From positions 65,163 through 129,162 of the forward strand of contig CAYIHQ010000001.1 in NCBI GenBank assembly GCA_964362905.1: a stretch of 64,000 nt of DNA. The letters are read 5' to 3'. How positions within the stretch are numbered: the first letter of the stretch is position 1; every line of letters begins with the position of its first letter. Origin of the DNA: an uncultured Ignavibacteriaceae bacterium. Its GTDB lineage: Bacteria > Bacteroidota > Ignavibacteria > UBA10030. Shown here piece after piece: positions 8,513 to 47,242 of the stretch. Made by a program: the position numbers and the translations under genes. Below the pieces are notes generated by a model. That model was not told the origin of the DNA. It ran no database searches and saw only the letters and a list, made by a program, of their open reading frames with translations.

Positions 8513-10008
8513 CGCTGCACACCAACCTTCCAGAACTTGCGCTTCTTGCCCGAGATGGGTGGACGAATGACAGTGGAGGTGGCTGGTCGGATCGTTGGAC
8601 GCCACCTGCCGGCATCACCTGATGGGGGCTTCGGCTCCGAATCCCCTGGAATCGGTGGAGGCTTGGGCTTCCCTGGAATAGGAGGAGGAAGCGGCTTTCG
8701 CAGGGGATGTGGAGGAGTGATTTTCTTGGGCGGGAGAGTAGGAGTGATTTTCTTGGGCGGGAGAGTAACCCTCACCCCCGCGGCGACCCCCCTCCCAAAA
8801 TCTCGGACCCCACGGATCCCAGCACGGACTACGCTAGCACCGGCCTTCCCCACCGTGGCCCCCACTCGATGGGATACAGAAGATGGAGGAGAGGGCGGAG
8901 ATACAGAGGAGCCGGAGCCGATCGGAATGTACTTCTTCTGGGTCTTTTGGGAAGTATGTTGGAACGGGGGAGGAGAGGGCTGACGCAGTGCGGCGGGGGG
9001 AGGTGGTGGTGGGGCAACCCCCTGACGAGCCGCCTTCAGCTTCCGCCACGCGCTCTGATGCGATGCCACCTTTCCCTGGGCTTGCGTAAGGCGCTTCAGC
9101 AAGCGTCGGCCACTGCCTACACGAGCAAAATCTTGACCGGCCGCATGACCCACGATCTTGCCAACCTTCTTGGCGCTACGCTTCGCCAAGAGATCATGCA
9201 GGAGCATGCGAGTAGTCTGCCCCTTGAGACCCTTCGCGCGCTCTCCAGCATCTGTATGCGCTTGTGCTTTGTCACCCAGTTGGTGACCCCGCTCCGCAGA
9301 GAGCTTGCCCCGCATTGCCACGCGCTTGGCTAGGTTCCCATAGCCCGCATCACGCATTCTCTGCGCCAGATCCTTGAGATCACTCGCATGTCCAAACTCA
9401 GCACCGAGCTTTCGCTGTAGATGGAGACGACGAAGACCATGCCAGCCACGCTTGGCCAAGCTCAGCGCATCACCAAGAGCTTCCTGCTGAGCACTAAGCC
9501 GTTTTGCTAGCTGCTTCTCTACATGGAGTTTCAAGGTTCTTTCCTCGAACTTGTTTCGATGGTAGTCTGTGAGATCAACAATCTCACTGGTTTCTGGGGG
9601 TCGCCCTCTCCGAGTAAGCACCGTCACAATGCCATCGTGACCAGCAGCAGCGAGCTTCCTGGATAGAGCTGCACCCTTAGCCTTATAGACGGATCGGAGC
9701 CGTGCCTTCCACGAAGTCTCGTCATAGGTAGGACCATCATCATGGGTGTTGAAGGCTAGAACAAGGGGGTTTCTGAATGTTACTTTACCACTCTCCCACC
9801 CTTCTGGCAGCTTCCCTGGATTTGGATGATGCAACAGGTAGCGACCATGAGGCTCGATCTTCTGCTGAAAGCGATCCGTAGAAAAAGGTTTTGGGGCGCT
9901 AGCCGTGTTGCGCACGTAGTGGACAGCTACTGGGTGTCCCGTCTCAAAGTGCTGCCCATGCTCTTGGTGTATCGCAGGGTGCAGTAGACTCCTAGGAGTG
10001 CGCACCAT
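8509..10008 (-). CDS. Hypothetical protein (499 aa): globular N-terminal domain, basic coiled middle, Pro-rich repeat C-terminus
   Basis: Long ORF. The N-terminus (FRNPLVLAFNTHDDGPTYDETSWKARL..KLAAAGHDGIVTV) looks like a conserved phage/plasmid domain that I cannot name. The C-terminus reads TLPPKKITPTLPPKKITPPHPLRKPLPPPIPGKPKPPPIPG. Confidence 0.7.
   Translation of the reverse strand: MVRTPRSLLHPAIHQEHGQHFETGHPVAVHYVRNTASAPKPFSTDRFQQKIEPHGRYLLHHPNPGKLPEGWESGKVTFRNPLVLAFNTHDDGPTYDETSWKARLRSVYKAKGAALSRKLAAAGHDGIVTVLTRRGRPPETSEIVDLTDYHRNKFEERTLKLHVEKQLAKRLSAQQEALGDALSLAKRGWHGLRRLHLQRKLGAEFGHASDLKDLAQRMRDAGYGNLAKRVAMRGKLSAERGHQLGDKAQAHTDAGERAKGLKGQTTRMLLHDLLAKRSAKKVGKIVGHAAGQDFARVGSGRRLLKRLTQAQGKVASHQSAWRKLKAARQGVAPPPPPPAALRQPSPPPFQHTSQKTQKKYIPIGSGSSVSPPSPPSSVSHRVGATVGKAGASVVRAGIRGVRDFGRGVAAGVRVTLPPKKITPTLPPKKITPPHPLRKPLPPPIPGKPKPPPIPGDSEPKPPSGDAGRWRPTIRPATSTVIRPPISGKKRKFWKVGVQR
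8714..8767 (-). repeat. Perfect 27-bp tandem duplication (ggagtgattttcttgggcgggagagta x2) encoding TLPPKKITP x2
   Basis: Read directly. A neighbouring imperfect 27-bp pair at about 8643-8697 encodes KPLPPPIPG/KPKPPPIPG. Confidence 0.9.
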
Positions 10009-10009
10009 T

Positions 10010-10531
10010 TCACTCGCTCAGGTGTGGGACGCGGATCCGGACGAAGCGTCGTGCCTCCGGCAATCCCCCTTGCTCTCGACACTTCGTGATGAGCGCGTTG
10101 CACCGAGCAGCTACTAGTTTCTTGTAAAGCGGCTGCTTATCTGGTGTCCAATAAACCGTCTTGTTCTTGCCTGTGTTTTTGCCAATGGTAAGCGCCTTAC
10201 TGGCATCTTCCATTGTCTCGCCCACACCGACCGTGATGGTGTGGCCCCCGGTCACTCGCTGGTAGAGCGCGCGCATTTTCTCGATGGAGTCGGGAGCACA
10301 CGTAGAGGCGGGCGCACGGATCAGCATGTCATCTCCCCCGGCGATGACAAAGCGACCCCTCAGCACCCGAGCAGCATACTTCTCGATGGCGGCCTCTCCT
10401 CGATGGATCGTGAGGCTCAGCTTGCGCGCGGACTTGAGATCATTTCGCAGGATGAACCTGGCCACATGGCTACCCATGTCATCCCCATCCGCCCCGATGT
10501 ACACCACCTTCCCCACAGGTTGCCAGCTCAT
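10010..10531 (-). CDS. Minimal Cas10-like palm-domain nucleotide cyclase/polymerase (mCpol / GGDEF-like), 173 aa
   Basis: Start taken at Met-20 of track ORF 10010..10588, giving an ATGA overlap with the stop of 10528..11703. Motifs in the expected order: VVYIGADGDDMG (first Asp strand), RFVIAGGDDMLIRAP (GGDD hairpin), and TITVGVG..ASKALTIGKNTGKNKTVY (the equivalent of the GGDEF C-terminus). Confidence 0.6.
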   Translation of the reverse strand: MSWQPVGKVVYIGADGDDMGSHVARFILRNDLKSARKLSLTIHRGEAAIEKYAARVLRGRFVIAGGDDMLIRAPASTCAPDSIEKMRALYQRVTGGHTITVGVGETMEDASKALTIGKNTGKNKTVYWTPDKQPLYKKLVAARCNALITKCREQGGLPEARRFVRIRVPHLSE

Positions 10532-11703
10532 GGCCTCACCTTTATCACGATCTTCGTGCTCCCCGACAGCTCCGGAGCCAGGGGCCAAAGAGGAGCACCC
10601 CTCTGATCGGCTCGTAGAGGGTTCTCGAACCGATCAGCAGTATCGTAGGGTGCAGTCGCCAGCAAAATGTTGTTGTTCGAGAAGTTCGGATTCGTACCGC
10701 CGTGGTACCACATGTACCACTTGTTATTGTAGATCAGAGCGCAGGGTCCACCGATGTTCTCTGAATCCCACGACGAAGGCCCCATGGTCAGAATAGGATT
10801 ATTTGGGTTGCGTTCCCACACGCGAGCATCCACGCTAAATGCGTGTCCAATCCCTGTCTTGTACCCCAGAGTGTCAGGACCAGGTACTCCGTAGTAGAAG
10901 AGATGGTAACCCCAGCCCCCCGGATCCCGGACCACACACTGGTGGCTCACCTGACCATCGTCCCACGCGGGTTTCCGCCCCAGATCAAATACAGGATCCG
11001 TGCTAGACCGCTGCCACGAGCTGATACCACTATCCCCCGATTGCGCCAACCCAATGCGCCAGCCCCAGGGATACGCAGCATTCTGCGTGAACGCCGCGTA
11101 CCACATATGGTATCGCCCGTCGATGACCAGAGGGCTGGTCTCTCCCAGACCCCCATTCTCAGTGATACCCACCTCGGGATCGTCCACGAAGTATGTCCGC
11201 TCCCACAAGTTGACGGGCTTCAGAATCGGACCCTTCTTGGTCCACACAATCCCATCCATGCTCTCCGCCTGGAAGATCCAGTTCTGCCGCCCTGTGGTGG
11301 CCTGCCCGGGGTACCCCATATAGTAGCCAAACCACTTGCTGTCCCCAGGGCTGTAGATCGCGCTGAACGTCTCGTTCCCCAGCCCATCTTCCTGCCCCAG
11401 GACCGGGCGGAGCACGAGGTAGCGCCAGGGATCGGCCTCGGTGTAGGGGTTCACCCAGTTCAGGCCATCCGCAGATTCGGTCCAGAAGATCCCCGGATAG
11501 AACTTCGGAGGGCCGTTGAACTGGCGGGAGAGCGTCACCCACATCTTCAGCGGTTTGGTGGGGTCGCCAAAGCGATGGGTGACCACCACCCAGGGGTCAC
11601 TCACCAGGTCATTGCGCAGTACAGCACTGGATCCCGTAGCTGTTACCTGCCCCAGCTTAGTCCACGGTCCCGGCCACTTGACAGACTCGGGAACTAGAAC
11701 CAT
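10528..11703 (-). CDS. Five-bladed beta-propeller glycoside hydrolase-like protein (GH43/GH32/GH130-type fold)
   Basis: 391-aa ORF with repeated blade signatures: KWFGYYMGYPG, DGIVWTKKGPIL, RYHMWYAAF, WGYHLFYYG, VWERNPNNPIL, NKWYMWYHGG. Paralog of 60855..61946. Confidence 0.6.
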   Translation of the reverse strand: MVLVPESVKWPGPWTKLGQVTATGSSAVLRNDLVSDPWVVVTHRFGDPTKPLKMWVTLSRQFNGPPKFYPGIFWTESADGLNWVNPYTEADPWRYLVLRPVLGQEDGLGNETFSAIYSPGDSKWFGYYMGYPGQATTGRQNWIFQAESMDGIVWTKKGPILKPVNLWERTYFVDDPEVGITENGGLGETSPLVIDGRYHMWYAAFTQNAAYPWGWRIGLAQSGDSGISSWQRSSTDPVFDLGRKPAWDDGQVSHQCVVRDPGGWGYHLFYYGVPGPDTLGYKTGIGHAFSVDARVWERNPNNPILTMGPSSWDSENIGGPCALIYNNKWYMWYHGGTNPNFSNNNILLATAPYDTADRFENPLRADQRGAPLWPLAPELSGSTKIVIKVRP

Positions 11704-11709
11704 ACGCTC

Positions 11710-12060
11710 CTAGCAACGCGAAAGTTCTTCTTCTTTCCCCTGCTGTTCCAACCAATCCTTTACTACATCCAAATGGCAAAGTTTTGGCGCACAAAAACAA
11801 GCCACAGTCTTGTCGCGCAATGCCAGAACCTGCTCCCTGAAGCTACTATCGTGCTCCACACGAGCAAGAAAGTAGTCTCGAAAGCGCTGGATAACCCGTT
11901 GTCGCTCCGACTCCCGGTACATCCGGAAGGGGTTTCCCAGCCAGCCTTTTTGACCCGGAGGGGTCTTCCTGGGATCCGCACTGTCTCGGCCACCAAAAAC
12001 GTAGTCAGCTCCAACCTCGGCTACCTCGCCAATGAAGTCCCGAAGATTGATTACTTTCAT
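11710..12060 (-). CDS. DUF4326-like protein (116 aa)
   Basis: Only the C-terminal part of track ORF 11710..12486 looks coding. Start MKVINL at 12060. GWLGNPF and VACFCAPKLCHLDV match the GNPF / C.C.P..CH motifs I associate with DUF4326. Confidence 0.6.
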   Translation of the reverse strand: MKVINLRDFIGEVAEVGADYVFGGRDSADPRKTPPGQKGWLGNPFRMYRESERQRVIQRFRDYFLARVEHDSSFREQVLALRDKTVACFCAPKLCHLDVVKDWLEQQGKEEELSRC

Positions 12061-12230
12061 GGAATCAGGTAGCGGCCGGAGCAACCTCTTTCGCCTGGCG
12101 AAAAATATGTCCAACTCGGTGGCGTCAGAGCATAAGTATGGAGATACCACTTCGCCGTCGAGTACACCGACGGATGTGGAAGCTCTGGGATCCCCCCGAA
12201 GGCGATGCCAGAGCTTCCCCAATCCGTAGG

Positions 12231-12461
12231 TCAGGCAGTGGCCGGAGCCGGAGCAACCTCTTCCGCCGCGAGCTGCGCCTTCAGTGCCACCACCACTGCA
12301 CGGGACTCCTTCCCCGACGGCTTGTACGTCTTGAGGAAGTCGGTGGGACTCAGCACCACCTGGTTCTTCCCGTCGATCACAAACCAGTGGCCTTCCGGCC
12401 CCATGGTACCCCCCGTGATGCGGATGGCCTCGACCGTCCGCGGAAACGTCTTGAACTTCAT
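12231..12461 (-). CDS. Hypothetical small protein (76 aa; 94 aa if the TTG at 12515 is used)
   Basis: ORF 12231..12515 in the track starts at TTG. An internal ATG at 12461 has AAGG 8 nt upstream. First gene downstream of the promoter-like element at 12517..12546. Confidence 0.5.
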   Translation of the reverse strand: MKFKTFPRTVEAIRITGGTMGPEGHWFVIDGKNQVVLSPTDFLKTYKPSGKESRAVVVALKAQLAAEEVAPAPATA

Positions 12462-12516
12462 CTTTTGAACCTTGGCGTAGGGACACCCACCATCGGGGCC
12501 TTGGAGCCAGATCAAA

Positions 12517-12546
12517 ATGCTACCAGAGGAGGAAGGCGGATCCTAG
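12517..12546 (-). promoter_or_regulatory. Promoter-like element CTAGG-N16-TGGTAGCAT preceded by a T-tract
   Basis: The minus strand reads CCATTTTTTCTAGGATCCGCCTTCCTCCTCTGGTAGCAT. Same architecture as the elements at 26.0, 36.0 and 55.05 kb. It heads the long operon running from 12461 to beyond position 1. Confidence 0.45.
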
Positions 12547-12574
12547 AAAAAATGGAGCAGCCACGGTGTGCCTC

Positions 12575-13531
12575 TTACCCCTGGCCCTCAGCCTTCAGGT
12601 CGTGCGGCTTCGTTTCGCCGCCGAAGTAGTCGAGCCCGTTCGCTTCCTCGAAGCCGTGCGGCAGGAACGGGAAGTAGACCCTAGGGTTCAGGCCGAGCTT
12701 CCACGCGAGGCGTACGGTCTCACGCATCGGCGGGCTTGCGAACTTGACCAGCTCGGCGTCCAGCTCCGGATCCTCGACCGACACAAGCACCTTCCAGTAG
12801 CCACCCTCGGCGGTATCGGAGACCTTCGCCGGGATACTCACCGCGGCCAGCTCCGCAACGTACAGCTCTGCACGCCCGCGGTTGTAGCGCTCGCCCGCCG
12901 ACGTGTACGCGTTGCTGTAGATGAGCACCGCGACGGGATTCTTGCCTAGCACCGGCCCGGGGAGCCCCACTGCGGCGGCCCTGAACGCCTCAGCGGCCGT
13001 CTTGATAGCGTCGTACAGCACCTTCTCGCGCGCAATGTACAGCGCTTGGATCGCACCGGAGGCGATCAGCAGGTCATGCGCCTGCGCGCTCGTGAGCTTC
13101 TGCTTGCCGCGGTGCTTGCGCTGCGCGGTCTCAAACACCTTACGTACGCAGGCTTGCTCCAGCGGCCCGTTCCGCGCGGTTTGCTCGTGATACTCGGCCT
13201 GCGCGCGTCGCCACTCCGTGAGCAGAGCACGTACGCTGTCCCGGGTTGTCCCGCTGGTGAGAGCACGACCACGCAGGAACGCCACCGAGACCTTGAGGTA
13301 CTGTCGCTCGTTACCGCTGAGCGACCGAACTCGGATCGTGGTGTGGGTTTCGTCGTCGAGAGCGCCGAGCCTCGCGGCCGCCCAATCGGTAGCCGCCTCA
13401 ACAGCCGCTTTGACGTTGGGCGCTTCGATAGTGGTTTCGCCGCCGATGTCTCCGCCGAGTTCGACGACCCACATCCGCCGAGCCACATCCGGTTTCATCA
13501 CGCGAAGCTCGACTCGGGACCAGAGTCCCAC
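12575..13531 (-). CDS. Hypothetical protein (318 aa), G+C-rich block
   Basis: Long ORF with protein-like composition. Competing same-region ORFs on the plus strand look like GC-driven artefacts. Confidence 0.65.
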   Translation of the reverse strand: MGLWSRVELRVMKPDVARRMWVVELGGDIGGETTIEAPNVKAAVEAATDWAAARLGALDDETHTTIRVRSLSGNERQYLKVSVAFLRGRALTSGTTRDSVRALLTEWRRAQAEYHEQTARNGPLEQACVRKVFETAQRKHRGKQKLTSAQAHDLLIASGAIQALYIAREKVLYDAIKTAAEAFRAAAVGLPGPVLGKNPVAVLIYSNAYTSAGERYNRGRAELYVAELAAVSIPAKVSDTAEGGYWKVLVSVEDPELDAELVKFASPPMRETVRLAWKLGLNPRVYFPFLPHGFEEANGLDYFGGETKPHDLKAEGQG

Positions 13532-13797
13532 TGCAAGCTCGGCCCGCCGAAGTCCGAGCCCGTGGTGGCGGCCGGTGGAATGGGGCCGTCCGACGCCTCG
13601 TGCGACTCGATACCTCCGGGCAGCCCGATCACCGCACGGTCAGCGCCGTGCCTCCAAACCGCTGCCGCGCGCTCTTGCAAGAACCCAGCTAGTTCGCTAC
13701 CGGGGCGTGCGATCAGCACGAAGAAAACCACCTCACCGAACGATGACCCGGAAGTTCAGTACTCGATCGGCGGAGACAGCGACCATGTCCGGGTCGA

Positions 13798-14610
13798 TCA
13801 CTGCGGGACGACCTTCGCCGACGGATCCCGAACCACACCGCCGGACTGGTCACAGCGATCGTGCCAAACCTTGCCGCCACTCCAGCCCGAGTACACCGAC
13901 TCGCCCCAGCAGAATCGCCCGCGGCACACCGCGCACCGCACGAAGAGCCACCGTCGGAGTAGCTGGAGGAGCGGGACTTGTATGCGCCAGTGCCAAACGT
14001 GCCAGCGCGGATGCCGCCACCACGGGCGGCTACACCGGAGGTAGTAGCGCACGACCGTCGCGAAGGCGTCGCGCCTCTGCTCCGGGTCCTTATGCGGATC
14101 GAACAGCTCGTCCGAGTGAAGCTCGCTGATGAAATCCAGAGCCCACTGCATCAGGCGCTTCGGCGAACGCTTATCCAGACGCCACGCGGCCGTCCGGAGA
14201 ACGAGAGCCACAAGAGCCAGAGAGTCCCCGGGGCTCGTCCTCCAACTGACGAACCTATGCGCCGGGTCCCCTGACGCGGTGTCAGCAGGGTACTCGGCCA
14301 CGTGCATCTCGACGCCGCACGTGAAGTACCGCGAGTAGTTCGGGTCGGCCTCCCACGAAGTCAGCTCGTTCACCAGCTTCGTGACCGCTGGATCCGATGC
14401 GCGCCAGTACCGGCCGAACCAGTCGCAGGAATCATCGGAGCCTTTGCGCTCCGGGTCCTTGTGCCACACGACCGCCAGGACCGGAGCGTAGTACTTCGGG
14501 GAGAGGAACGCGCCCTCCTCACGAGTGCGGCGCCGCATCCGCCACCACTCGCGGACCGCGCGAATGGTCGGCATGCGAATCGTTGCGAGCATGGAGTAAG
14601 GGTCGTGCAT
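13798..14610 (-). CDS. Hypothetical Trp/Arg-rich protein (270 aa)
   Basis: Long ORF with no recognised motif. C-terminal Cys cluster CAVCRGRFCWGE..HDRC. Confidence 0.6.
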   Translation of the reverse strand: MHDPYSMLATIRMPTIRAVREWWRMRRRTREEGAFLSPKYYAPVLAVVWHKDPERKGSDDSCDWFGRYWRASDPAVTKLVNELTSWEADPNYSRYFTCGVEMHVAEYPADTASGDPAHRFVSWRTSPGDSLALVALVLRTAAWRLDKRSPKRLMQWALDFISELHSDELFDPHKDPEQRRDAFATVVRYYLRCSRPWWRHPRWHVWHWRIQVPLLQLLRRWLFVRCAVCRGRFCWGESVYSGWSGGKVWHDRCDQSGGVVRDPSAKVVPQ

Positions 14611-14616
14611 GTCTAC

Positions 14617-15105
14617 TCAGAAGCGCACAGAAATAGGCGACTCGGGATCCAGAGGAAGAGGCTCGGGATCAAGTGGAATGGGAGACGGTCCTTGGGAGAG
14701 CCTGAGCTGCACATGCTTCTGAGTACGCGCATCCCAGCAGATCACCTCGATTTCCTTCCCATCGTTTAGCAGCTTCTCCAATACCCCTGGAAGCGCATGG
14801 AGATAGCTCGCTGCGGAATCCCATAGATGAGCATAGTAGATTGGAGCCTCTTTTCTAGGCCTCATTATCATCATGGGGTTTCCATCGAACTCTCTCAGCG
14901 CGAGTGTACAGATGCCAAGGCTAGCAATTTCAGCCTCCCAAAACGTCCATGAGTGCAAGCGCTCGACCAGGTACGACGGCGTGCCCCGATACATCTCCTC
15001 CGTGGTTCGCAGCATGTTACGACCTGCGGATACGTAGTTATCGAAGACCCATTTCCGATGGGTCGGCGTGGCAACAACAGCTCGAAGTCGGCGAAGGAAA
15101 CTCAC
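14617..15105 (-). CDS. Hypothetical protein (162 aa)
   Basis: ORF with an ATGA overlap to the upstream gene at 15102-15105. C-terminal PIPLDPEPLPLDPESP repeat. Confidence 0.6.
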   Translation of the reverse strand: MSFLRRLRAVVATPTHRKWVFDNYVSAGRNMLRTTEEMYRGTPSYLVERLHSWTFWEAEIASLGICTLALREFDGNPMMIMRPRKEAPIYYAHLWDSAASYLHALPGVLEKLLNDGKEIEVICWDARTQKHVQLRLSQGPSPIPLDPEPLPLDPESPISVRF

Positions 15106-15341
15106 GTCGATGACCTTTGCGCAGCACGTAACACGTCTTCCGCTTGTTCCGCCGCAGCAAAACGACGCAGACGCTCGTCAATTGGCAGTCGTGATAACCA
15201 CGCAGCCCTTTCATCACCACTCATGTGTTCCAACATTACGGCCTCGGCAGCCGTCAATGGCAGCCACTTGCGTTCGATCGCAGGCGGTGGAACAGGTGGT
15301 TGAACCCCGTAGACGATCTCATGCGGATGCTTGATATCCAT
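15102..15341 (-). CDS. Hypothetical protein (79 aa)
   Basis: ORF translationally coupled to the downstream gene. Confidence 0.5.
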   Translation of the reverse strand: MDIKHPHEIVYGVQPPVPPPAIERKWLPLTAAEAVMLEHMSGDERAAWLSRLPIDERLRRFAAAEQAEDVLRAAQRSST

Positions 15342-15353
15342 TTTAGCTCCCTC

Positions 15354-15692
15354 TCACGATGCACCCCGGTCGATCTTGTAAATCGCTGCCAGGATCATGC
15401 CATCTTCTCTCCAACGCGACAGCTCCAACGACTCCGGCATCCCGTCGATCTCACGGTACCCGCCCGCAATTGAGGAGCATACGGTCACGCTGTTGACCTC
15501 ACCCTCGTCGTCAACCGTCGTCATCGGTAAGCACGATCCCCCGAGCATCGACTGCGGTCGCAGCAGGAGATCGGTAATCAGCTCGATTGTGGCATCGACC
15601 GGAGCATGGTCATCAAGCAGCCCGTTCACTGACAGAAACTCACGAAGACGCTCGTAATCAGCGCTGCTTTCAACAGAGACCTGACTTGTCAT
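15354..15692 (-). CDS. Hypothetical acidic protein (112 aa)
   Basis: Start moved to Met-46 (15692) of track ORF 15354..15827, which has AGGAGG about 6 nt upstream. Confidence 0.55.
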   Translation of the reverse strand: MTSQVSVESSADYERLREFLSVNGLLDDHAPVDATIELITDLLLRPQSMLGGSCLPMTTVDDEGEVNSVTVCSSIAGGYREIDGMPESLELSRWREDGMILAAIYKIDRGAS

Positions 15693-15717
15693 TTTTTCCT
15701 CCTGAGAGATGGGTCTT

Positions 15718-16032
15718 CTACGTATCCACAGGTCGTAACATGCTGGCCACCACGGAGGAGATGTAATCCCTGACGGTCGAAGCAAGTGAATCACCACAGC
15801 ACGAGCACACCCAAGTTCTCTGCCCATACGGATGAGCCAGTGCTACCCTTTCCCATGCCTTATCAATGGGAAGCAGAAGCAACACCCCCGACTTGCCACG
15901 GCATTCCACCGCGCACTCCTCTGAGCAATAGCACTCGTTCCAGCAGACAGCTTCACCATCACGGTCAGCGTCCATCTCGATCAAGACAACGTTCTTCAAT
16001 GGTGCGGAGATGCTTGGGATAAGGTCGGTCAC
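15718..16032 (-). CDS. Hypothetical Cys-rich protein (104 aa)
   Basis: The GTG at 16032 forms a GTGA overlap with the stop of 16029..16229. Contains CWNECYCSEECAVEC..CSCCG. Confidence 0.45.
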   Translation of the reverse strand: MTDLIPSISAPLKNVVLIEMDADRDGEAVCWNECYCSEECAVECRGKSGVLLLLPIDKAWERVALAHPYGQRTWVCSCCGDSLASTVRDYISSVVASMLRPVDT

Positions 16033-16229
16033 GGCCTGATCTCGTCGCTTGCCTTCGCCCGAATCGCTGCCGCTCCGCCGCGATCGCGGAAGTTTGCTCC
16101 GACCAACCGACGAACGCACTCCTCCGCTTCCGCGGCAGTCATATCGTCGGCCTCGATGATCTTGGCGCCGGAGCAGAACCTCAACCCCAGCGCAGTCTTG
16201 GTCTCCCACTTGACGAGATACCGCGTCAC
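16029..16229 (-). CDS. Hypothetical protein (66 aa)
   Basis: The GTG at 16229 forms a GTGA overlap with the stop of 16226..16537. The upstream part of the track ORF is Arg/Gly/Pro junk-like. Confidence 0.4.
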   Translation of the reverse strand: MTRYLVKWETKTALGLRFCSGAKIIEADDMTAAEAEECVRRLVGANFRDRGGAAAIRAKASDEIRP

Positions 16230-35830: not shown

Positions 35831-36027
35831 GACTTACCCCCGTGCGCGCGGAGCAGATCGTCGTCGAGTGGGAGCGCGTCGTCGAACGGCCGCATTGCAA
35901 AGGGATCATCACCTGGCGAGGGTGAACGACGCTCCGTCTCAGCCGCGCACTCCCGCGCATCCCCTTGCAGATGCGCAAGCCGCGCAACCTGCCTAGCCAG
36001 CTCGACGTAGACCTTGATGGTTTCCAT
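35827..36027 (-). CDS. Hypothetical protein (66 aa), first gene of an operon
   Basis: Met-39 ([10 protein letters not shown]) of track ORF 35827..36141. The ATG lies 6 nt after the TGGTATCCT element. Confidence 0.5.
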
Positions 36028-43000: not shown

Positions 43001-43335
43001 GCTCCTACGGATTCCAGAAGATCGGGAAGGTTCGGTGGTGGCGCCGAGAGCAGCCGGTCAGAGACCCGTTGCTCCAGCCCATCACTCACATGGCAACGGA
43101 TCTTATAGCGACCCGGGAGGCCGCAGCCTAGCCCCAAGTTGCCAAGGCGCTCCGCACGACGCTGGGGTGTGAGATAGCCGATCCGGAAAGTGGCTAGCCC
43201 AGGTAGCCGCACGTCCTCACCCGAGACCAGCAGCTCCCCCACTGTCTCCGCCAGCGTGCTGAGTAGGGTCTGTGCCTCATCCCGAGGGATTCCCCAGCGC
43301 TGCCCCATCGCGGTCACGAACTCTCGGTACCGCAT
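42997..43335 (-). CDS. HU/IHF-like DNA-binding protein
   Basis: Met-32 (MRYREFVTAM) of the track ORF. EAQTLLSTLAETVGELLVSGEDVRLPGLATFRIG..GRYKIRCHVSDGL follows the HU fold pattern. Confidence 0.65.
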   Translation of the reverse strand: MRYREFVTAMGQRWGIPRDEAQTLLSTLAETVGELLVSGEDVRLPGLATFRIGYLTPQRRAERLGNLGLGCGLPGRYKIRCHVSDGLEQRVSDRLLSAPPPNLPDLLESVGA

Positions 43336-45236
43336 GCTGGCTCCAAGAAGGCCACAAAACCACACTTGGGGCACAGAAGGTAGGGCTCCTCTTCCGACTG
43401 ATGCTCCACCATCGTCTGCTCCCTGCAAGCAGTACAGAGCACTCGACCATCTTCCGTGACGTTCCCCAGTAGACGCGCAAGATCCGTCTCTTCGCGCTCC
43501 AAGTCAAAGCACTCTGCCTCCGCCAACGATTTCTCTTCCTCCGTTTTCTCCCCAACTTTTGGCGGCGGCAGGGGATCGAATACATGCACAGTATCATCTG
43601 AGAGCCGCGCACGAACAGCACTCCGCTCGGAAAACGCTTGCAGCGTGCGATTGGATACAGTCCTAGAAGCATCCGCAGAGCCCTGCCCCAAGAATAGATC
43701 CAGCTCCTCGTCAGTAAGTCCGAGAAAGCGACGCAGCACCCAACCACGCCATGCCGGAGCATTGGCAACTATTCCGCTGTTGGGGACCACCCCACCCGTC
43801 TTTGGATCCGTTTGCTGCCCCATCTGCGGAAGCTCAAGCAGCTTGGCCGCAACATCGTATTTCTGCGCGTAGATGTCAGCCCGTGCCAGGTCATCCAGGT
43901 AGTTGATTGGGGCCATCCGGACCCTGAACCTGACCTTATCTACATCGTAGCCGCGGAGAGCCAGGTGAATCCGACAGAGCTGTGTCAACCCGTGCTTGAA
44001 AGCTCTTTGCACTCGATAGATAGAGCGTGCGAAACGGATGTCCTGGCTGACGAGTGTACTTTTCGCATTCACGTCTTTTTCATAGCCCATGAATGCCTTT
44101 GGAATCTTCAAGGCTGCAAACAGCTTGTTCCGGAAATGATCCACATCATAGATGTCACCCTGGGGGCCAGATCCTTGTAGGCGTTCTACGCGAGTCTTGC
44201 TGTCACGAGGAATCGGAATGTACATATCCTCATCAGCGGTTCTCGGATCATACTGCTGCCGCATCTGCCCATTGACAGTATTGACGTAGAACTTCTTGCG
44301 CAGCTCGCGGCGGAAGCGATGCACAGTCTGCCACTGCTGATCCGGCGTCTGATTCCCCGTATCAATGTAGTAGACATCCTTGTCCGTCGCACGGTTCATC
44401 CTGTAGAGCACGAGGGTGTCTTCCAGGATCTTGAGCTGTCTCCAGCTACGACGCGCGGCCAGGAGCACGGTTTCTCCGTGGCGTAGCTCTCTTCGAGAGG
44501 ATTGGAGACGAAAGTGCAGAAAGTCCCAAGGTCTCGATAGCTTCAGCTTCTTCTGCTGCTCCGGATCACGGATCTCGTAGTCATTCAGCAAGCCCGGAGA
44601 GAAGCCCATGAGGCGCCCAACACGGTCCTCGATCCGGGTCAAGCGCTGGGGCTGTATGAAATCGAGGTTGATGATCCCACGAGTTCCAGACGCAATGATT
44701 TGCTCGAAGTCATCGCCATACTTGCACATGGAGCGAACGATGCCAAAAGCACGATCTTCAAGCTGGATCGCATCGAAGAGCGCCATCAGCTCGCGCTTGG
44801 CCTCCTCTGCTTCGCACTCCACCCATGCTACCCGTCCAGTGTCTGCATCCGTTTGCGTCGCCTCCTCCGCATAGATATCTAGCGCGCTGGAGCAGATATC
44901 ATAGGAGTCCATCTCCTCCACAAGCCCGTAGACAGAACGGCGATTCAGCTCAAACTGCGTTTGCGCGTTGTACCACGAGTAGTTGCGCCCCATATCCGGC
45001 TCATCGAAGCGGAAGGGTGGCGCCAAATCCACAGTCTGGTCCAAACCAAAGATGTGGCGAAGCCCACGGAGGCGTGGTAGATAGTTGTCTACAAAAAGCT
45101 GCAAGCCACTGTAGTCAGCCTCCGGGATGATGAGTGGGAGACCGAGCTGCCCCCGAGTCCAGGCCGGAAGCTGCGCAACCTCCTCCATGGACAAGCCTCT
45201 GGATTCTACGAGCTTACGAAGAGCTTTGCCGTTCAC
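43314..45236 (-). CDS. Portal protein (640 aa) with a C-terminal zinc-ribbon extension
   Basis: Lies immediately downstream of terL with an ATGA overlap, and the size is appropriate. SSALDIYAEEATQTD is a motif I associate with podovirus-type portal/connector proteins. C-terminal CTACRE..CPKCG. Confidence 0.7.
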   Translation of the reverse strand: MNGKALRKLVESRGLSMEEVAQLPAWTRGQLGLPLIIPEADYSGLQLFVDNYLPRLRGLRHIFGLDQTVDLAPPFRFDEPDMGRNYSWYNAQTQFELNRRSVYGLVEEMDSYDICSSALDIYAEEATQTDADTGRVAWVECEAEEAKRELMALFDAIQLEDRAFGIVRSMCKYGDDFEQIIASGTRGIINLDFIQPQRLTRIEDRVGRLMGFSPGLLNDYEIRDPEQQKKLKLSRPWDFLHFRLQSSRRELRHGETVLLAARRSWRQLKILEDTLVLYRMNRATDKDVYYIDTGNQTPDQQWQTVHRFRRELRKKFYVNTVNGQMRQQYDPRTADEDMYIPIPRDSKTRVERLQGSGPQGDIYDVDHFRNKLFAALKIPKAFMGYEKDVNAKSTLVSQDIRFARSIYRVQRAFKHGLTQLCRIHLALRGYDVDKVRFRVRMAPINYLDDLARADIYAQKYDVAAKLLELPQMGQQTDPKTGGVVPNSGIVANAPAWRGWVLRRFLGLTDEELDLFLGQGSADASRTVSNRTLQAFSERSAVRARLSDDTVHVFDPLPPPKVGEKTEEEKSLAEAECFDLEREETDLARLLGNVTEDGRVLCTACREQTMVEHQSEEEPYLLCPKCGFVAFLEPACGTESS

Positions 45237-47242
45237 GGAATAATCCCACTCACTCGACTGAAGTCAATGTCATCTCCCATTACCCACTCGTCATCGTCCA
45301 TAAACCGAGGACGTTGCCGCGCAGGAGGTGGGGCACCAACGAGGGGGAGCGCGCTATCCTGCGTTGCAGGATCCAGTACCATACAGTGACGAACAACGCC
45401 CCCAACGGCGTCCGCTACATCCTTACTACCCCGAACTTTCCTACCCCCACTGTCCAGCATGTACACCGGATGGTCCACCCTCCATAGGTGTGTCGCCTTG
45501 GGCACAGAGCGTTTCAAATTGACAGCCTCGGTCAGAAAGCGCTCGTAAGCATAGTAGCTAATTCGGTGCTCCAAAATTGCCTGACGTAGGTAGGAGTATG
45601 GATGCCCCTCCGTTGGCTTGGGTGGGCGATCCATTGACAAAATCCCTGCCTCGAAACCATGATGAAGGAGCTGCTGTACACTATCCTCAGACTGCCAGCC
45701 ATCAAAAGACACGTACTTTATCGGAAAACCATAGGCCCGAAGAGCGTAGATGAAATCTCGAATCTTTTGGAAGTCGATTCTGGTACCGATCTCTGGTACG
45801 ATTCGGAGCATGAAGTCGATGTAGAGAAGAGGCGCCCGGGTAGTGTAGCTAGCACCGTCCACGCGAGATGCCTTCTGTAATTCCTTGGAGCCCGCAACGT
45901 GACCCATGGCAATCCCAGCGCTGTCCCCCGTGACCCCCAGATCCACATGCAGATAGCGGCTAGAGCTAGCAGCCACACGGGGTGCGAAGTTGCTGTGAAT
46001 CACACGCAGAAGCTGATCGTGAAGAAATAGATCCTCTATCGCGGTCTCTGAAGATATCGTTATGGAGAACTCTTGCTTCGAGAACGGGTGGCTCCGTGTG
46101 GCATCACAGCAGGCATAGATATCAGAGCGAGAGGGGATAAAGGCTTGCTCGGCCTCCGTGGCCACCCCGGCAATATCCCGCAGAGCCGCGTCAACATCGT
46201 CTACAAACGCCTGACGGTGCTCTACGGGAACCCAGATGACCTTGCCGGGAGAAGCCTTAGCCTCCGTTTCCGTCAGAAGGCGACTATCGGATTCCCTTCC
46301 TCCCACAGACACAGGAAACTTGGCACCCGAATAGCGCCCAGGCTTCACCTCCCACAATGGCTTGTCCGCGATGAAGACCCGCGGATCGCCCACACGCTCA
46401 GCAATGCGAGTCTCGATAAACCCACCCTGAGAGGACTTGCTGGAGATCAGCACCATCAAGCCCGGGATCTCGCCCAATCGCATGTAACGGGATTCCATAC
46501 GTCGAGCAGTAGAGGTATAAAGCCGATATGCCTGTCCCTTATCCTCCTCAGTCGCGCCGGCGCGCATGAAGTCCATCTCATCCACCAAACAGGCGTAGAT
46601 GTTCTCGCCTATGCTATGCAGCTCATCAGAGCCGTGAATCACACGAACTCCGTCTGGGAACTCGATGTCAGCAGTACGCCTTGGATTCCTCGGCCATCTG
46701 TCACGGAAATATGGAGACAGCTCCAAGAAGCCCGCGGCGTAGGCAAAGCTGGTCGTACGGACCTTGTACTTGAAGACGTTGTAGAGCCCGAAGACAATAG
46801 GCGAGCCCGGAGCCATCTCAAAGAACTTCTGCGGATCACGCAAACAGCTCAGGGTGTATATTTTGTAGAGAAGGGCTACGACTGCAACCGTGGTCTTTCC
46901 ACTCCCGATTGAGCCACTGAGAATAAACTCCCATACGCGGCGACCCGGAGAGAACACCTCCTCTAGCACCTCACGCCAAGCAGGATAGAGCGAGGGGCCG
47001 ACAGCACCGAGGTAGTAAGGATCCTCCAGGAACTCCTTGATGGTCACAGGACGACACTTGTAGTCCAGCTCCCACAGAAGATTGAGCGAGTGCGATTCCC
47101 CAGAGCTTCGCAGCTCAGTCAGCACCTCGATGACAAAGGTTTTCTCGTGCGTTTGCAGCGAATCAAACAGAGCACGATCACCATGCTCTGATCCATCCAG
47201 AATCCTCTGGACCAGAGTCAGCTCATCGGCCGTTGGTGGCAT
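45233..47242 (-). CDS. terL: Terminase large subunit
   Basis: Walker A LSGSIGSGKTTV, Walker B ACLVDEMDF, and a RNaseH-like nuclease half containing RYLHVDLGVTGDSAGIAMGHV. Confidence 0.9.
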   Translation of the reverse strand: MPPTADELTLVQRILDGSEHGDRALFDSLQTHEKTFVIEVLTELRSSGESHSLNLLWELDYKCRPVTIKEFLEDPYYLGAVGPSLYPAWREVLEEVFSPGRRVWEFILSGSIGSGKTTVAVVALLYKIYTLSCLRDPQKFFEMAPGSPIVFGLYNVFKYKVRTTSFAYAAGFLELSPYFRDRWPRNPRRTADIEFPDGVRVIHGSDELHSIGENIYACLVDEMDFMRAGATEEDKGQAYRLYTSTARRMESRYMRLGEIPGLMVLISSKSSQGGFIETRIAERVGDPRVFIADKPLWEVKPGRYSGAKFPVSVGGRESDSRLLTETEAKASPGKVIWVPVEHRQAFVDDVDAALRDIAGVATEAEQAFIPSRSDIYACCDATRSHPFSKQEFSITISSETAIEDLFLHDQLLRVIHSNFAPRVAASSSRYLHVDLGVTGDSAGIAMGHVAGSKELQKASRVDGASYTTRAPLLYIDFMLRIVPEIGTRIDFQKIRDFIYALRAYGFPIKYVSFDGWQSEDSVQQLLHHGFEAGILSMDRPPKPTEGHPYSYLRQAILEHRISYYAYERFLTEAVNLKRSVPKATHLWRVDHPVYMLDSGGRKVRGSKDVADAVGGVVRHCMVLDPATQDSALPLVGAPPPARQRPRFMDDDEWVMGDDIDFSRVSGIIP

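What the first reader, a model, noticed from the sequence alone, without database searches (positions are those of the whole stretch)
10010..10531. Orphan minimal Cas10-like palm cyclase (mCpol / GGDEF-like) embedded in a phage operon
**Sequence evidence.** A 173-aa ORF is ATGA-coupled to the gene upstream and separated by 1 nt from the gene downstream. It carries the palm-domain cyclase/polymerase motifs in the expected order and spacing:
- VVYIGADGDDMG, the first metal-binding Asp strand (compare GGDEF D.D.FK).
- RFVIAGGDDMLIRAP, the GGDD/GGDEF hairpin as in Cas10.
- TITVGVG..ASKALTIGKNTGKNKTVY, equivalent to the GGDEF tail SiGva..AD.ALY.AK..GrN.

**Family assignment.** It has no sensor or effector domain and is far shorter than canonical diguanylate cyclases. 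That fits the minimal CRISPR polymerase (mCpol) class.

**Context.** As I recall, bacterial mCpol genes sit next to membrane or other effectors in defence loci. In the Panoptes system, mCpol makes decoy cyclic nucleotides whose depletion by phage sponges triggers the effector. Here the gene is phage-borne and has no effector-like neighbour. Its neighbours are a glycosidase-like propeller, DUF4326, a Pro-rich 499-aa protein and Arg/Lys-rich proteins.

**Inference.** This may be a phage-encoded nucleotide-signal synthase used offensively. It could replenish decoy signals to keep a guard-type defence silent, or jam host cyclic-nucleotide immunity. I am not aware of this being described.
Basis: partly seen in the sequence, partly recalled or inferred. 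Interest (0 to 1): 0.85.

Follow-up and report, generated by a model that had tools for sequence, protein, structure and literature searches.

The report
Effector-less mCpol nucleotide cyclase in a phage
An uncultivated T4-like groundwater phage carries an apparently active copy of the small nucleotide cyclase that bacteria use in the Panoptes anti-phage guard, but without the bacterial killing partner, so the phage may make an immune-type signal itself to manipulate its host.

Summary
Window 10010-10531 (minus strand) encodes a 173-aa protein that matches Pfam mCpol at E 1.1e-16, well above the curated cut-off. The DGDD and GGDD catalytic motifs are intact. The window is part of a roughly 129-kb phage with a T4-type portal.

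No membrane or sensor effector was recognised nearby, so this is not a Panoptes system.

New here: the protein belongs to a distinct mCpol clade with an extra C-terminal helix.
- No clade member was found in 185,579 reference genomes (only three weak, partial matches), in IMG/VR or in cultured phages. It turned up only in metagenomic contigs; the longer ones are phage-like (one has a nearby Mu-type portal).
- Twelve of its 16 closest representatives carry long Lys/Arg-rich tails.
- More distant relatives sit inside giant multi-enzyme proteins, with SAM lyase, NUDIX, pyrophosphatase, ART-PolyVal or Mu portal domains.
- The gene just downstream joins a conserved, structurally novel domain to a basic tail. 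That tail weakly resembles the tails fused to the two closest mCpol homologues.

Best reading: a phage-deployed nucleotide-signal synthase that interferes with host cyclic-nucleotide immunity, possibly by silencing Panoptes-type guards. Its function, product, timing and host are untested. A related idea was proposed in 2017 for GGDEF domains in phage polyvalent proteins.

The parts
10010..10531 (-). mCpol gene, 173 aa. The palm cyclase domain spans aa 11-126 and a clade-specific extension follows.
   Evidence: Pfam mCpol E 1.1e-16. Clade profile A3 hits only Panoptes mCpol structures 9nwn and 9mnr at 3-6e-11. Best Foldseek PDB hit is OptS 9pd0, E 1.6e-4.
10478..10489 (-). First acidic motif, D15-G-D17-D18. 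Predicted metal-binding strand; D15 corresponds to Asp6 of K. pneumoniae OptS.
   Evidence: D15, G16 and D17 are invariant in the 14-sequence clade alignment. Alignment to 9nwn/9mnr. OptS active-site residues taken from PMC12657218.
10328..10339 (-). GGDD hairpin (aa 65-68). D67 corresponds to Asp57 of OptS, where the motif reads AADG.
   Evidence: G65, G66, D67 and D68 are invariant in the clade. GGD is at least 90% conserved across 116 representatives.
10160..10180 (-). KNTGKNK motif (aa 118-124), the C-terminal motif of the palm domain.
   Evidence: K118, T120, G121 and K122 are invariant.
10052..10156 (-). Clade-specific C-terminal extension (aa 126-160): strand VYW followed by a long helix. 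It is absent from the 120-131-aa Panoptes enzymes.
   Evidence: W128 is invariant, Y136 nearly so. AF2 predicts a helix at aa 130-153. The solved mCpol chains are 125-131 aa and end soon after the GKN motif.
10528..10531 (-). ATGA start/stop overlap with the upstream gene.
   Evidence: Read directly from the sequence.
10528..11703 (-). Upstream 391-aa gene, a GH32/GH117-like beta-propeller. It has a paralogue at 60855-61946.
   Evidence: Partial PDB sequence hits 3r4y at 1.2e-6 and 4ak6 at 5.8e-5. Paralogy is 33% identity over 165 aa. No Pfam or PHROG family.
9559..9966 (-). Domain X of the downstream 499-aa protein (aa ~15-150). It is a conserved domain of unknown fold that is shuffled among phage proteins.
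   Evidence: 12 homologues at 40-55% identity with 26 invariant residues. One partner protein has a weak Phage_Mu_F match and one has KTSC. The AF2 model has pLDDT 82.6, yet Foldseek finds no PDB neighbour (best E 0.05).
8509..9558 (-). Lys/Arg- and Pro-rich tail of the 499-aa protein.
   Evidence: KR 0.18, P 0.11. Weak, specific similarity to the tails fused to mCpol in P0004 and P0005: BLASTP E 9e-4, Smith-Waterman z 4.6 and 3.5 with 1 of 300 shuffles reaching the score, hhalign E 0.003 but probability only 11%.
3888..8512 (-). Four further basic proteins: 7658-8512, 6784-7656 (or 7578), 5759-6787 and 3888-5762. The last two are paralogues.
   Evidence: KR 0.17-0.21 and DE 0.06-0.08. Paralogy at 38-41% identity. 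No Pfam or PHROG family.
2769..3854 (-). 361-aa protein. Homologues of its N-terminal domain lie immediately downstream of the mCpol homologue in related contigs.
   Evidence: tblastn hits next to mCpol in L005, L007, L008, L015 and L035. Alignment A8. Its profile has no PDB hit.
1184..2545 (-). 453-aa protein, the third member of the conserved gene order.
   Evidence: Homologues in L007 (31% over 479 aa) and L015.
11710..12150 (-). DUF4326 gene upstream of the propeller gene.
   Evidence: Pfam E 3e-15. phrog_464 at 1.4e-21.
43314..47242 (-). Portal (43314-45236) and terminase-like (45233-47242) genes, which mark the window as phage DNA.
   Evidence: phrog_213 portal at 2.7e-48 and phrog_2 at 2.9e-5. 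The portal matches 2,376 phage records, including T4-like phages and cyanophages.

Best explanation
The gene encodes a catalytically competent member of the mCpol (minimal Cas10-like palm) family. It belongs to a distinct branch that was found here only in metagenomic, phage-like contigs.

Shown:
- Family membership and intact acidic catalytic motifs.
- Phage location.
- No recognisable effector next to the gene.
- A clade-specific C-terminal helix.
- Relatives are mostly fused to long basic tails or embedded in giant multi-enzyme, polyvalent-like proteins.

Inferred:
- Like its Panoptes relatives, the enzyme condenses NTPs (probably ATP) into a cyclic di- or oligonucleotide without needing an activator.
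- The phage uses that product against the host rather than to control a toxin of its own.

The most likely specific target is host cyclic-nucleotide immunity. The phage could supply the inhibitory 'all is well' nucleotide that keeps Panoptes-type effectors switched off. That is the logic of an orphan antitoxin. Alternatively, it could flood or confuse CBASS or type III CRISPR receptors.

The gene heads a tightly packed run of basic proteins that may be host-directed and possibly virion-delivered. The mCpol itself has no recognisable packaging signal, so it may simply be expressed from the injected genome.
For: - Family: Pfam mCpol E 1.1e-16. The clade profile hits only the solved Panoptes mCpol structures, at 3.4e-11 and 6.3e-11, with no Cas10 or GGDEF at E<=0.01. 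The best Foldseek hit is OptS 9pd0.
- Catalytic residues: D15, G16, D17 and G65-G66-D67-D68 are invariant across 14 clade members at 34-65% identity. DGD and GGD are at least 90% conserved in 116 representatives.
- Phage setting: portal, terminase-like gene, RNR and SbcCD; a T4-type portal; a ~129.5-kb contig assembled twice with different end points.
- No effector: no hydrophobic segments and no Pfam or PHROG families in the ORFs from 2769 to 14610, apart from DUF4326.
- Distribution of the clade: the scan of 185,579 reference genomes gave only three weak, partial matches and no clade member. Metagenomic relatives lie on 14-174-kb contigs. In L020 the mCpol gene lies about 3 kb (three ORFs) upstream of a weak, sub-threshold Mu-type portal match that contains an intein.
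- Fusions: among the 116 nearest representatives the co-occurring domains are DUF5661, NUDIX, GNAT, InPase, Portal_Mu, ART-PolyVal, S-AdoMet lyase and GGDEF. None is a CARF, SAVED, HEPN or 2TM effector domain.
- Giant proteins combine mCpol with DNA ligase, GGDEF and PrimPol, with SAM lyase, with NUDIX, or with an inorganic pyrophosphatase. A pyrophosphatase partner fits a reaction that releases pyrophosphate.
- Tails: 12 of the 16 closest representatives have basic tails.
- Other genes in the window are of counter-defence type: SAM lyase/DUF3293, Macro, MazG and a pentapeptide-repeat protein.
- T4, which has the same portal type, triggers Panoptes through Acb2 (PMC12657218 and PMC12657230).
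Against: - No biochemical data exist. The product and any constitutive activity are assumed by analogy with enzymes only about 20% identical.
- The AF2 model of the mCpol is mediocre (pLDDT 63.8, three-sequence alignment).
- No sponge or phosphodiesterase that would make signal replenishment necessary was found in the 64-kb window. About half of the genome was not seen.
- The host is unknown, so it is unknown whether it carries Panoptes, CBASS or type III CRISPR.
- Expression timing is unknown. The promoter and terminator scans gave nothing above chance.
- The mCpol lacks the basic tail and any leader, so virion delivery is unsupported for this particular protein.
- A conserved neighbour (the 361-aa family) could be an unrecognised partner or effector.
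- The phage nature of many relatives rests on contig context alone.
Confidence: 0.4

Rival explanations
1. It is a phage-carried signalling module with an unrecognised partner. The mCpol makes a nucleotide that controls a phage-encoded protein: the conserved 361-aa family, domain X of the 499-aa protein, or a basic protein. The purpose would be superinfection exclusion, defence against rival phages, or control of the phage's own cycle. In other words, a Panoptes-like or positive-signalling system with a novel effector.
For: - A homologue of the N-terminal domain of the 361-aa protein lies directly after the mCpol homologue in L005, L007, L008, L015 and L035, across 43-57% mCpol identity.
- The 499-aa gene is separated from the mCpol gene by a single base.
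- Its tail weakly resembles tails fused to mCpol in the two closest homologues.
- Domain X is a confident, structurally novel domain of unknown function.
- Iyer et al. 2017 also raised 'a response against rival elements' as a possibility.
Against: - None of these proteins has transmembrane segments or a recognised nucleotide-sensor domain.
- In the window the 361-aa gene is about 6 kb from the mCpol gene, and it is absent next to the closest homologue, P0004.
- The conserved gene order may only reflect common descent of related phages.
- The tail similarity is weak (hhalign probability 11%).
Confidence: 0.2
2. It is a nucleotidyltransferase that does not make a diffusible signal. The palm domain would add nucleotides to a protein or nucleic-acid substrate, for example the co-encoded basic proteins, DNA ends or RNA, or it would make short linear oligonucleotides.
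For: - According to the Panoptes paper, palm domains of this superfamily were earlier unified with the tRNA-His repair polymerase Thg1.
- In P0050 the mCpol domain sits between DNA ligase, PrimPol and LigD phosphoesterase domains, which all act on DNA ends.
- In the window the gene heads a run of Lys/Arg-rich proteins that probably bind nucleic acid.
Against: - Both characterised mCpol enzymes, and Cas10 and GGDEF, make cyclic nucleotides.
- The clade keeps the same two acidic motifs and has no extra nucleic-acid-binding domain in the 173-aa form.
- P0050 also contains a separate GGDEF domain, which suggests a signalling theme.
Confidence: 0.12
3. It reprogrammes host physiology rather than acting against defence. 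The product would be a second messenger such as c-di-GMP or c-di-AMP that changes host motility, surface structures, osmoregulation or metabolism. This could block superinfection or improve phage yield.
For: - Cyclic dinucleotides control surface glycans and pili that phages use as receptors (papers listed, such as PMC8669472).
- A few uncultured-phage proteins annotated as GGDEF or diguanylate cyclase exist in BFVD.
- A MASE1-like membrane protein is encoded elsewhere in the window.
Against: - The protein is mCpol, not GGDEF.
- Known mCpol products are 2',3'-c-di-AMP and cA3, which are immune decoys rather than housekeeping messengers.
- The fusion partners of relatives (SAM lyase, ART-PolyVal, NUDIX) are of the conflict type.
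Confidence: 0.1
4. It is a decayed or purely structural remnant with no enzymatic role.
For: - A cultured phage, Myxococcus phage Mx1, carries a borderline mCpol-like N-terminal region that lacks both acidic motifs. This shows that degenerate copies can exist.
Against: - All catalytic positions are intact and invariant across the clade.
- Only 2 codons differ non-synonymously and 4 synonymously between two phage variants, while several neighbours changed much more.
Confidence: 0.03

Closest known systems
Panoptes synthase OptS/mCpol (K. pneumoniae and V. navarrensis type I; type II with a CARF-TM effector). PDB 9mnr, 9pd0, 9nwn.
   Same: - Same Pfam family (PF18182).
- Same minimal palm domain without other Cas10 domains.
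- Equivalent acidic residues: D15 to Asp6, D67 to Asp57.
- These are the only PDB entries hit by the clade profile.
   Different: - About 20% identity.
- GGDD instead of AADG at the hairpin.
- About 45 extra C-terminal residues forming a conserved strand and helix.
- Encoded by a phage, not in a bacterial defence island.
- No adjacent 2TM-beta or CARF-TM effector.
- Relatives are fused to basic tails or to phage multi-enzyme proteins.
GGDEF domains in phage and prophage polyvalent proteins (Iyer, Burroughs, Anand, de Souza and Aravind 2017, PMC5512222; for example Acetonema longum WP_004096050.1).
   Same: - A palm-type nucleotide cyclase deployed by a phage.
- In relatives of the window protein, the cyclase sits in one polypeptide with unrelated conflict enzymes.
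- The proposed role is the same: interference with host nucleotide signalling.
   Different: - Those were classified as GGDEF. This is mCpol, with no GGDEF hit even at E<=10.
- The window protein is a stand-alone 173-aa ORF, not a domain of a polyvalent protein.
- Neither case has been tested experimentally.
Cas10 palm/cyclase domain of type III CRISPR-Cas.
   Same: - Homologous palm fold with a GGDD motif.
- Secondary Pfam hit to Cas10-Cmr2_palm2 at 2.6e-8, and PADLOC Cas10 models down to 1.7e-5.
- Foldseek hits to Csm1 and Cmr2.
   Different: - No HD domain, zinc finger or other Cas10 domains.
- No Csm or Cmr partner genes among the annotated neighbours.
- The clade profile does not reach any Cas10 in the PDB at E<=0.01.
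Orphan antitoxin-type counter-defence in T4-like phages (the DarG-like enzyme that neutralises DarTG1; PMC11825919).
   Same: The concept only. The phage carries the protective half of a two-part host system without the toxic half. Panoptes has been described as a toxin-antitoxin pair in which the mCpol product is the antitoxin.
   Different: - An unrelated protein family and chemistry.
- The analogy is an inference, not a tested property of this gene.

Membership tests
mCpol (Pfam PF18182, minimal CRISPR polymerase) | Profile score above the curated threshold over the whole domain. | tested here: met
   61.7 bits against a cut-off of 26.4, E 1.1e-16, model positions 1-112 of 114.
mCpol (Pfam PF18182, minimal CRISPR polymerase) | Two acidic catalytic motifs: an N-terminal D-x-D strand and the GGDD-type hairpin (OptS Asp6 and Asp57). 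| tested here: met
   D15-G-D17-D18 and G65-G-D67-D68 are present and invariant in the clade.
mCpol (Pfam PF18182, minimal CRISPR polymerase) | Palm fold closest to solved mCpol structures. | tested here: met
   The clade profile hits only 9nwn and 9mnr/9pd0, at 3-6e-11. The AF2 model (pLDDT 63.8) has a beta-alpha-beta-beta-alpha-beta core, and its top Foldseek hit is 9pd0 (E 1.6e-4; TM 0.61 on the target). Model quality is moderate.
mCpol (Pfam PF18182, minimal CRISPR polymerase) | Minimal architecture, without the HD, zinc-finger or other Cas10 domains. | tested here: met
   173 aa. Only the two overlapping palm families are found.
mCpol (Pfam PF18182, minimal CRISPR polymerase) | Synthesis of a cyclic nucleotide from NTPs. 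| not testable with these tools
   Needs purified protein and LC-MS.
Panoptes anti-phage system (optSE; mCpol with 2TM-beta or CARF-TM) | An adjacent effector gene that combines transmembrane helices with a nucleotide-binding domain. | tested here: not met
   No hydrophobic segment (19-residue window) in any minus-strand ORF from 2769 to 14610. No Pfam or PHROG family in these ORFs except DUF4326. PADLOC was run on the mCpol only.
Panoptes anti-phage system (optSE; mCpol with 2TM-beta or CARF-TM) | Location in a bacterial genome, often next to CBASS. | tested here: not met
   The window is phage DNA. No clade member was found in 185,579 reference genomes; only three weak, partial matches turned up.
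Panoptes anti-phage system (optSE; mCpol with 2TM-beta or CARF-TM) | A constitutive inhibitory signal that restrains a toxic effector. | not testable with these tools
   Needs genetics and biochemistry.
Cas10 / type III CRISPR-Cas | A large multi-domain Cas10 with Csm or Cmr partner genes. | tested here: not met
   The protein is 173 aa and the scanned neighbours have no cas families. The clade profile does not reach Cas10 in the PDB at E<=0.01. CRISPR arrays were not searched for.
GGDEF diguanylate cyclase (PF00990) | A match to the GGDEF profile. | tested here: not met
   No GGDEF hit even at E<=10. The motif reads GGDD.
Phage polyvalent proteins (Iyer et al. 2017) | Two or more unrelated domains in one polypeptide, often anchored to MuF or portal. 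| tested here: not met
   The window ORF has a single domain. The feature is met by relatives: P0050, P0062, P0031 and P0100, and Portal_Mu and ART-PolyVal fusions among the 116 representatives.
T4-type internal (capsid-targeted) proteins | An N-terminal capsid-targeting leader of the MKTYQEFIAE/A type. That this leader is cleaved after Glu is from my own knowledge of T4, not from a tool result. | tested here: inconclusive
   The mCpol N-terminus (MSWQPVGK) has no such leader. The downstream basic paralogues start MKFCLIPRFTEA and MRFFLAPCFSEA, and several L015 proteins start MKVYLEAVDP. These resemble the N-termini of T4 IPI, IPII and IPIII read. The resemblance is short and cannot be assessed statistically.

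The most novel reading that the evidence does not exclude
This mCpol clade, found so far only in phage-like contigs, is a counter-measure against guard-type immunity. The phage makes, or in the tail-fused and polyvalent forms injects an enzyme that makes, the very cyclic nucleotide that keeps Panoptes-like effectors silent. It could then deploy sponges or nucleases against CBASS or CRISPR signals without tripping the guard. That would be the first anti-Panoptes mechanism and the first virus-encoded synthase of a bacterial immune signal.
Probability: 0.25. Interest if true: 0.85.

Novelty: new variant of a known kind. Interest (0 to 1): 0.62.

Why it matters
Panoptes (2025) showed that bacteria can guard their cyclic-nucleotide pool with a constitutive decoy signal. 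The obvious next question is how phages escape such guards other than by losing their sponges.

A phage-encoded mCpol without an effector is a concrete, synthesisable candidate. It can be tested in the existing E. coli Panoptes assays.

The wider result may matter more than this single gene. A whole branch of the mCpol family appears to live in uncultivated phages, mostly as basic-tailed or multi-enzyme proteins. That would extend the 2017 polyvalent-protein idea to the Cas10-like cyclases. It suggests that phages make immune-type nucleotides as well as destroying them.

Tried and rejected
- Cultured phages: DNA and tblastn searches of the INPHARED phage collection with the window and with the mCpol found nothing. 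Two other clade members gave only a borderline hit in Myxococcus phage Mx1 (E 3e-3). That protein lacks both catalytic motifs.
- IMG/VR: pattern scans with the single protein and with the clade alignment gave no confirmed relative.
- Programmed frameshift joining the mCpol to the 499-aa protein: considered because relatives are fused. The junction reads GAG TGA A ATG, an ordinary closely spaced stop and start, and nothing supports recoding.
- Tail homology: an HMM of the conserved tail domain of the more distant tail-fused subclade did not match any window protein better than shuffled controls. Only the tails of the two closest homologues resemble the 499-aa protein, and weakly.
- ADP-ribosyltransferase in the 624-aa protein: suspected from motifs at its C-terminus. 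Pfam, PHROGs and a PDB sequence search gave no support.
- Domain X: a good AF2 model, but no structural neighbour in the PDB.
- The 361-aa family: its profile has no PDB hit. A database search with its N-terminal half returned nothing, not even itself, so that search was wasted.
- T4 Acb1, Acb2 and internal proteins: no significant match in the window.
- Promoter and terminator scans over 1-16000 were at or below chance.
- The 552-aa ORF upstream in L025 has no PDB sequence match.
- Local BLAST could not identify which representative carries the Mu-portal or ART-PolyVal fusion.
Full report
**1.

The ORF lies on the minus strand at 10010-10531 and encodes 173 aa.
- Its ATG overlaps the TGA of the upstream 391-aa ORF (10528-11703) as ATGA.
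- A single base separates its stop from the ATG of the downstream 499-aa ORF (8509-10008).
- The three quoted motifs are all present.
- Pfam gives PF18182 mCpol at E 1.1e-16 (61.7 bits, cut-off 26.4) across model positions 1-112 of 114. PF22335 Cas10-Cmr2_palm2 scores 2.6e-8. No GGDEF hit appears even at E<=10.
- PADLOC's best model is CARF_HEPN_mCpol, matched in its mCpol part. PHROGs has nothing.

**2. It is mCpol, and it looks active**

- The single sequence reaches the solved Panoptes enzymes only weakly (E ~0.07).
- A profile of 14 clade members hits exactly two PDB sequences at E<=0.01. These are the mCpol structures 9nwn (3.4e-11) and 9mnr/9pd0 (6.3e-11). No Cas10 or GGDEF is hit.
- An AF2 model from a three-sequence alignment is mediocre (pLDDT 63.8). 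It has the palm topology, and its best Foldseek PDB hit is OptS 9pd0, followed by GGDEF and Cas10 palms.
- D15, G16, D17 and G65-G66-D67-D68 are invariant in the clade. DGD and GGD stay at least 90% conserved over 116 representatives.
- D15 and D67 align with the OptS active-site Asp6 and Asp57 named in PMC12657218. OptS has AADG where this protein has GGDD.
- The clade adds about 45 residues after the GKN motif: a VxW strand and a long helix, with W128 invariant.
- Between this phage and a 99%-identical variant from another well (L013), the gene differs at 4 synonymous and 2 non-synonymous codons.

**3. The window is phage DNA**

- All large genes run on the minus strand.
- There is a portal (phrog_213, 2.7e-48), a terminase-like gene, a 1250-aa ribonucleotide reductase and SbcCD.
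- The portal matches 2,376 phage records, including T4-like coliphages, cyanophages and Rhodothermus phage RM378. The best identities are about 30%. This is therefore a distant member of the group of phages with T4-type portals.
- The identical mCpol protein occurs on ENA groundwater contigs of 129,574 and 129,334 bp. They come from replicate 0.1-micron samples and have different end points relative to the gene, which fits a complete, circularly permuted genome.
- Other genes include several methyltransferases, DUF5131, a pentapeptide-repeat protein, a Macro domain, MazG and a DUF3293/SAM-lyase-like protein.
- No DNA match exists in the cultured-phage collection.

**4. No recognisable effector is nearby**

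- The ORFs from 2769 to 14610 have no 19-residue hydrophobic segment.
- Apart from DUF4326, they have no Pfam or PHROG family.
- The upstream 391-aa protein is a GH32/GH117-like propeller (partial PDB hits down to 1.2e-6). It has a paralogue between the SbcC and SbcD genes, so it is unlikely to be a dedicated partner.
- Two defining features of Panoptes are therefore not met: the effector and the bacterial defence-island location.

**5. The gene is not an isolated orphan**

- An exhaustive HMMER search found 703 representatives at E<=1e-3, 165 of them at E<=1e-10.
- The closest are P0004 and P0005, at 65% and 63% identity. They and most of the next dozen carry the same ~160-aa domain at the N-terminus, followed by 200-350 residues that are 22-29% Lys+Arg. 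Twelve of 16 are tailed. Four representatives, and the window protein, are stand-alone.
- All 116 nearest representatives match mCpol. The other domains found in them are DUF5661 (6 proteins), NUDIX, GNAT, InPase, Portal_Mu, GGDEF, ART-PolyVal, S-AdoMet lyase and a PI3/PI4-kinase-like domain. No CARF, SAVED, HEPN or 2TM families appear.
- Giant examples:
  - P0050 (1992 aa): DNA ligase, mCpol, GGDEF, LigD PrimPol, sigma-70 region 2 and LigD phosphoesterase.
  - P0062: DUF5661, mCpol and SAM lyase.
  - P0031: DUF5661, mCpol and NUDIX.
  - P0100: mCpol and inorganic pyrophosphatase.
- Pattern scans found no clade member in 185,579 reference genomes, only three weak, partial matches. They found nothing in IMG/VR and 19 loci in metagenomes.
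- Where context is long enough, it is phage-like. In L020 a 472-aa mCpol protein lies about 3 kb (three ORFs) upstream of a weak, sub-threshold Mu-type portal match that contains an intein. L015 is a 173.8-kb contig from the same aquifer.
- These scans rely on short conserved patterns, so absence is strong only for the close clade.

**6. The local cassette**

- Downstream of the mCpol lie five consecutive basic proteins.
- The 499-aa protein begins with a ~135-aa 'domain X' that has 26 invariant residues across 12 homologues.
- In those homologues domain X sits at different positions in 280-713-aa proteins. One has a weak MuF-like region (E 0.004, below the Pfam threshold) and one has a KTSC domain.
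- The AF2 model of domain X is confident (pLDDT 82.6), but it has no PDB neighbour.
- The tail of the 499-aa protein resembles the tails fused to mCpol in P0004 and P0005, and no other basic protein does. The evidence is weak: BLASTP E 9e-4, Smith-Waterman z 4.6 and 3.5, hhalign E 0.003 with probability 11%. I treat this fusion link as suggestive only.
- The N-terminal domain of the 361-aa protein (2769-3854) has homologues immediately after the mCpol homologue in L005, L007, L008, L015 and L035. The 453-aa protein follows in L007 and L015. In these relatives the order is mCpol, then the 361-like gene, with the 453-like gene further downstream; I infer that this is the older arrangement. In this phage the five basic genes sit between the first two.

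**7. Mechanism**

Shown: an intact mCpol-family enzyme in a phage, with no recognisable effector, from a clade whose other members are built like host-directed phage proteins.

Inferred: it makes a cyclic nucleotide without an activator, as Panoptes mCpols do (2',3'-c-di-AMP and cA3). The phage would use this to disturb host nucleotide-based immunity.

The specific anti-guard model is attractive for two reasons.
- Panoptes has been described as a toxin-antitoxin pair in which the mCpol product is the antitoxin.
- Phages are known to carry orphan antitoxin-type enzymes (PMC11825919).
- T4, which has the same portal type, is restricted by Panoptes because of Acb2.

Against it:
- No sponge or nuclease was found in the 64 kb examined.
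- The host is unknown.
- Expression timing is unknown.
- This particular protein lacks the tail or any leader that would suggest virion delivery.

Rivals, in order of weight:
1. A phage-borne signalling module with an unrecognised partner.
2. A nucleotidyltransferase that does not make a free signal.
3. Physiological reprogramming of the host.
4. A dead relic, which the conserved catalytic residues contradict.

**8. Prior knowledge and novelty**

- The three Panoptes papers in the library do not mention phage-encoded mCpol. No paper was found on it.
- Iyer et al. 2017 reported GGDEF domains in phage polyvalent proteins. They proposed that such a cyclase might interfere with host responses or act against rival elements.
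- BFVD holds a few uncultured-phage proteins annotated as GGDEF.
- I therefore rate this a new variant of a known kind: an mCpol branch found only in phage-like contigs, with its own architecture and no effector.
- It is worth an experiment because the assays already exist. Every functional statement here remains inference.

Noticed in passing
window 3888-5762 and 5759-6787; L015 13730-14119, 17048-17596, 18563-18961, 18958-19452; L005 9731-10504: Several otherwise unrelated proteins of this cassette share a short N-terminal motif: MKFCLIPRFTEA, MRFFLAPCFSEA, MKVYLEAVDP, MKVYLLEAVPY (on a GNAT enzyme) and KIYLIPRFESE. It resembles the N-termini of the T4 internal proteins (MKTYQEFIAEA, MKTFKEF...). 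Together with the T4-type portal, this hints at capsid-targeted, injected proteins. A related stretch, AEAVDPEERKLRLRKLL, lies inside the 284-aa protein (7658-8512, aa 199-225).
   Followed up: partly
window 1184-6787 compared with L013: Between two 93-99% identical phage variants, the 342-aa basic protein differs at 17 non-synonymous but only 5 synonymous codons. The 624-, 361- and 453-aa proteins also show as many or more non-synonymous changes. The mCpol, the propeller and the 264-aa gene are conserved. These are crude counts only, but the pattern suggests fast-evolving host-interacting proteins.
   Followed up: partly
window 9559-9966 (aa ~15-150 of the 499-aa protein): Domain X gives a confident AF2 model (pLDDT 82.6, pTM 0.79) with no Foldseek neighbour in the PDB (best E 0.05, TM below 0.26). 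It occurs at different positions in multi-domain phage proteins, one with a weak MuF-like region and one with KTSC. It may be an undescribed polyvalent-protein domain.
   Followed up: partly
window 39248-43000: The ribonucleotide reductase large subunit is 1250 aa. An internal segment (aa ~342-608) matches a different PHROG annotated as helicase, which suggests an inserted element such as an intein.
   Followed up: no
window 16000-18000 (ORF 16534-17829): GC rises sharply to 0.73, against about 0.58 elsewhere, over a 431-aa ORF with no Pfam family. The variant contig L013 is only 89% identical here.
   Followed up: no
window 55022-58584, plus strand: This is the only plus-strand gene cluster. 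The listed 404-aa ORF (56227-57441) has several hydrophobic segments, all in its C-terminal ~190 aa, so the real gene may be shorter. One of the 45 small ORFs scanned together matches Pfam MASE1 (E 1.1e-16), and another matches HTH_3. I assume, without per-ORF output, that the MASE1 hit is this membrane ORF and that the HTH protein belongs to this cluster. MASE1 usually precedes GGDEF/EAL or kinase domains, so a stand-alone copy in a phage is odd.
   Followed up: partly
window 35233-35316 (+) and 34968-35987 (-): ARAGORN calls a tRNA-Leu(CAG) on the plus strand, inside and antisense to a strong pentapeptide-repeat gene (Pfam E 3e-47). Either the tRNA call is spurious or the ORF boundaries are wrong.
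   Followed up: no
window 60855-61946: A 363-aa ORF lies between the SbcC-like and SbcD-like genes. Its C-terminal half is paralogous to the propeller protein upstream of the mCpol (33% identity over 165 aa).
   Followed up: no
window, several loci; positions of the three hits from the 45-ORF batch scan are not resolved: The window holds several genes of counter-defence type: a DUF3293/S-AdoMet-lyase-like protein, a Macro domain protein, MazG, a pentapeptide-repeat protein (34968-35987) and at least three methyltransferases (18939-19685, 20616-21200, 28136-28924).
   Followed up: partly
L036 (Myxococcus phage Mx1, OR576727.2, 33963-35369): A 468-aa hypothetical protein has a borderline mCpol-like N-terminus (E 3e-3) that lacks both acidic motifs. 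It lies about 3 kb (five genes) downstream of a 1480-aa 'NUDIX hydrolase' and a 620-aa 'kinase', and about 4 kb upstream of the tail sheath gene. This resembles the mCpol-NUDIX and mCpol-kinase fusions seen in metagenomic relatives.
   Followed up: partly
P0011 (309 aa, metagenomic): This relative carries two tandem mCpol domains in one chain (two matched stretches). That could be a built-in pseudo-dimer for an enzyme that probably needs two active sites to cyclise.
   Followed up: no
L005 10501-11736: In a soil contig, an IS605/TnpB (Cas12f-like) element sits directly after the pair of mCpol and 361-like genes.
   Followed up: no
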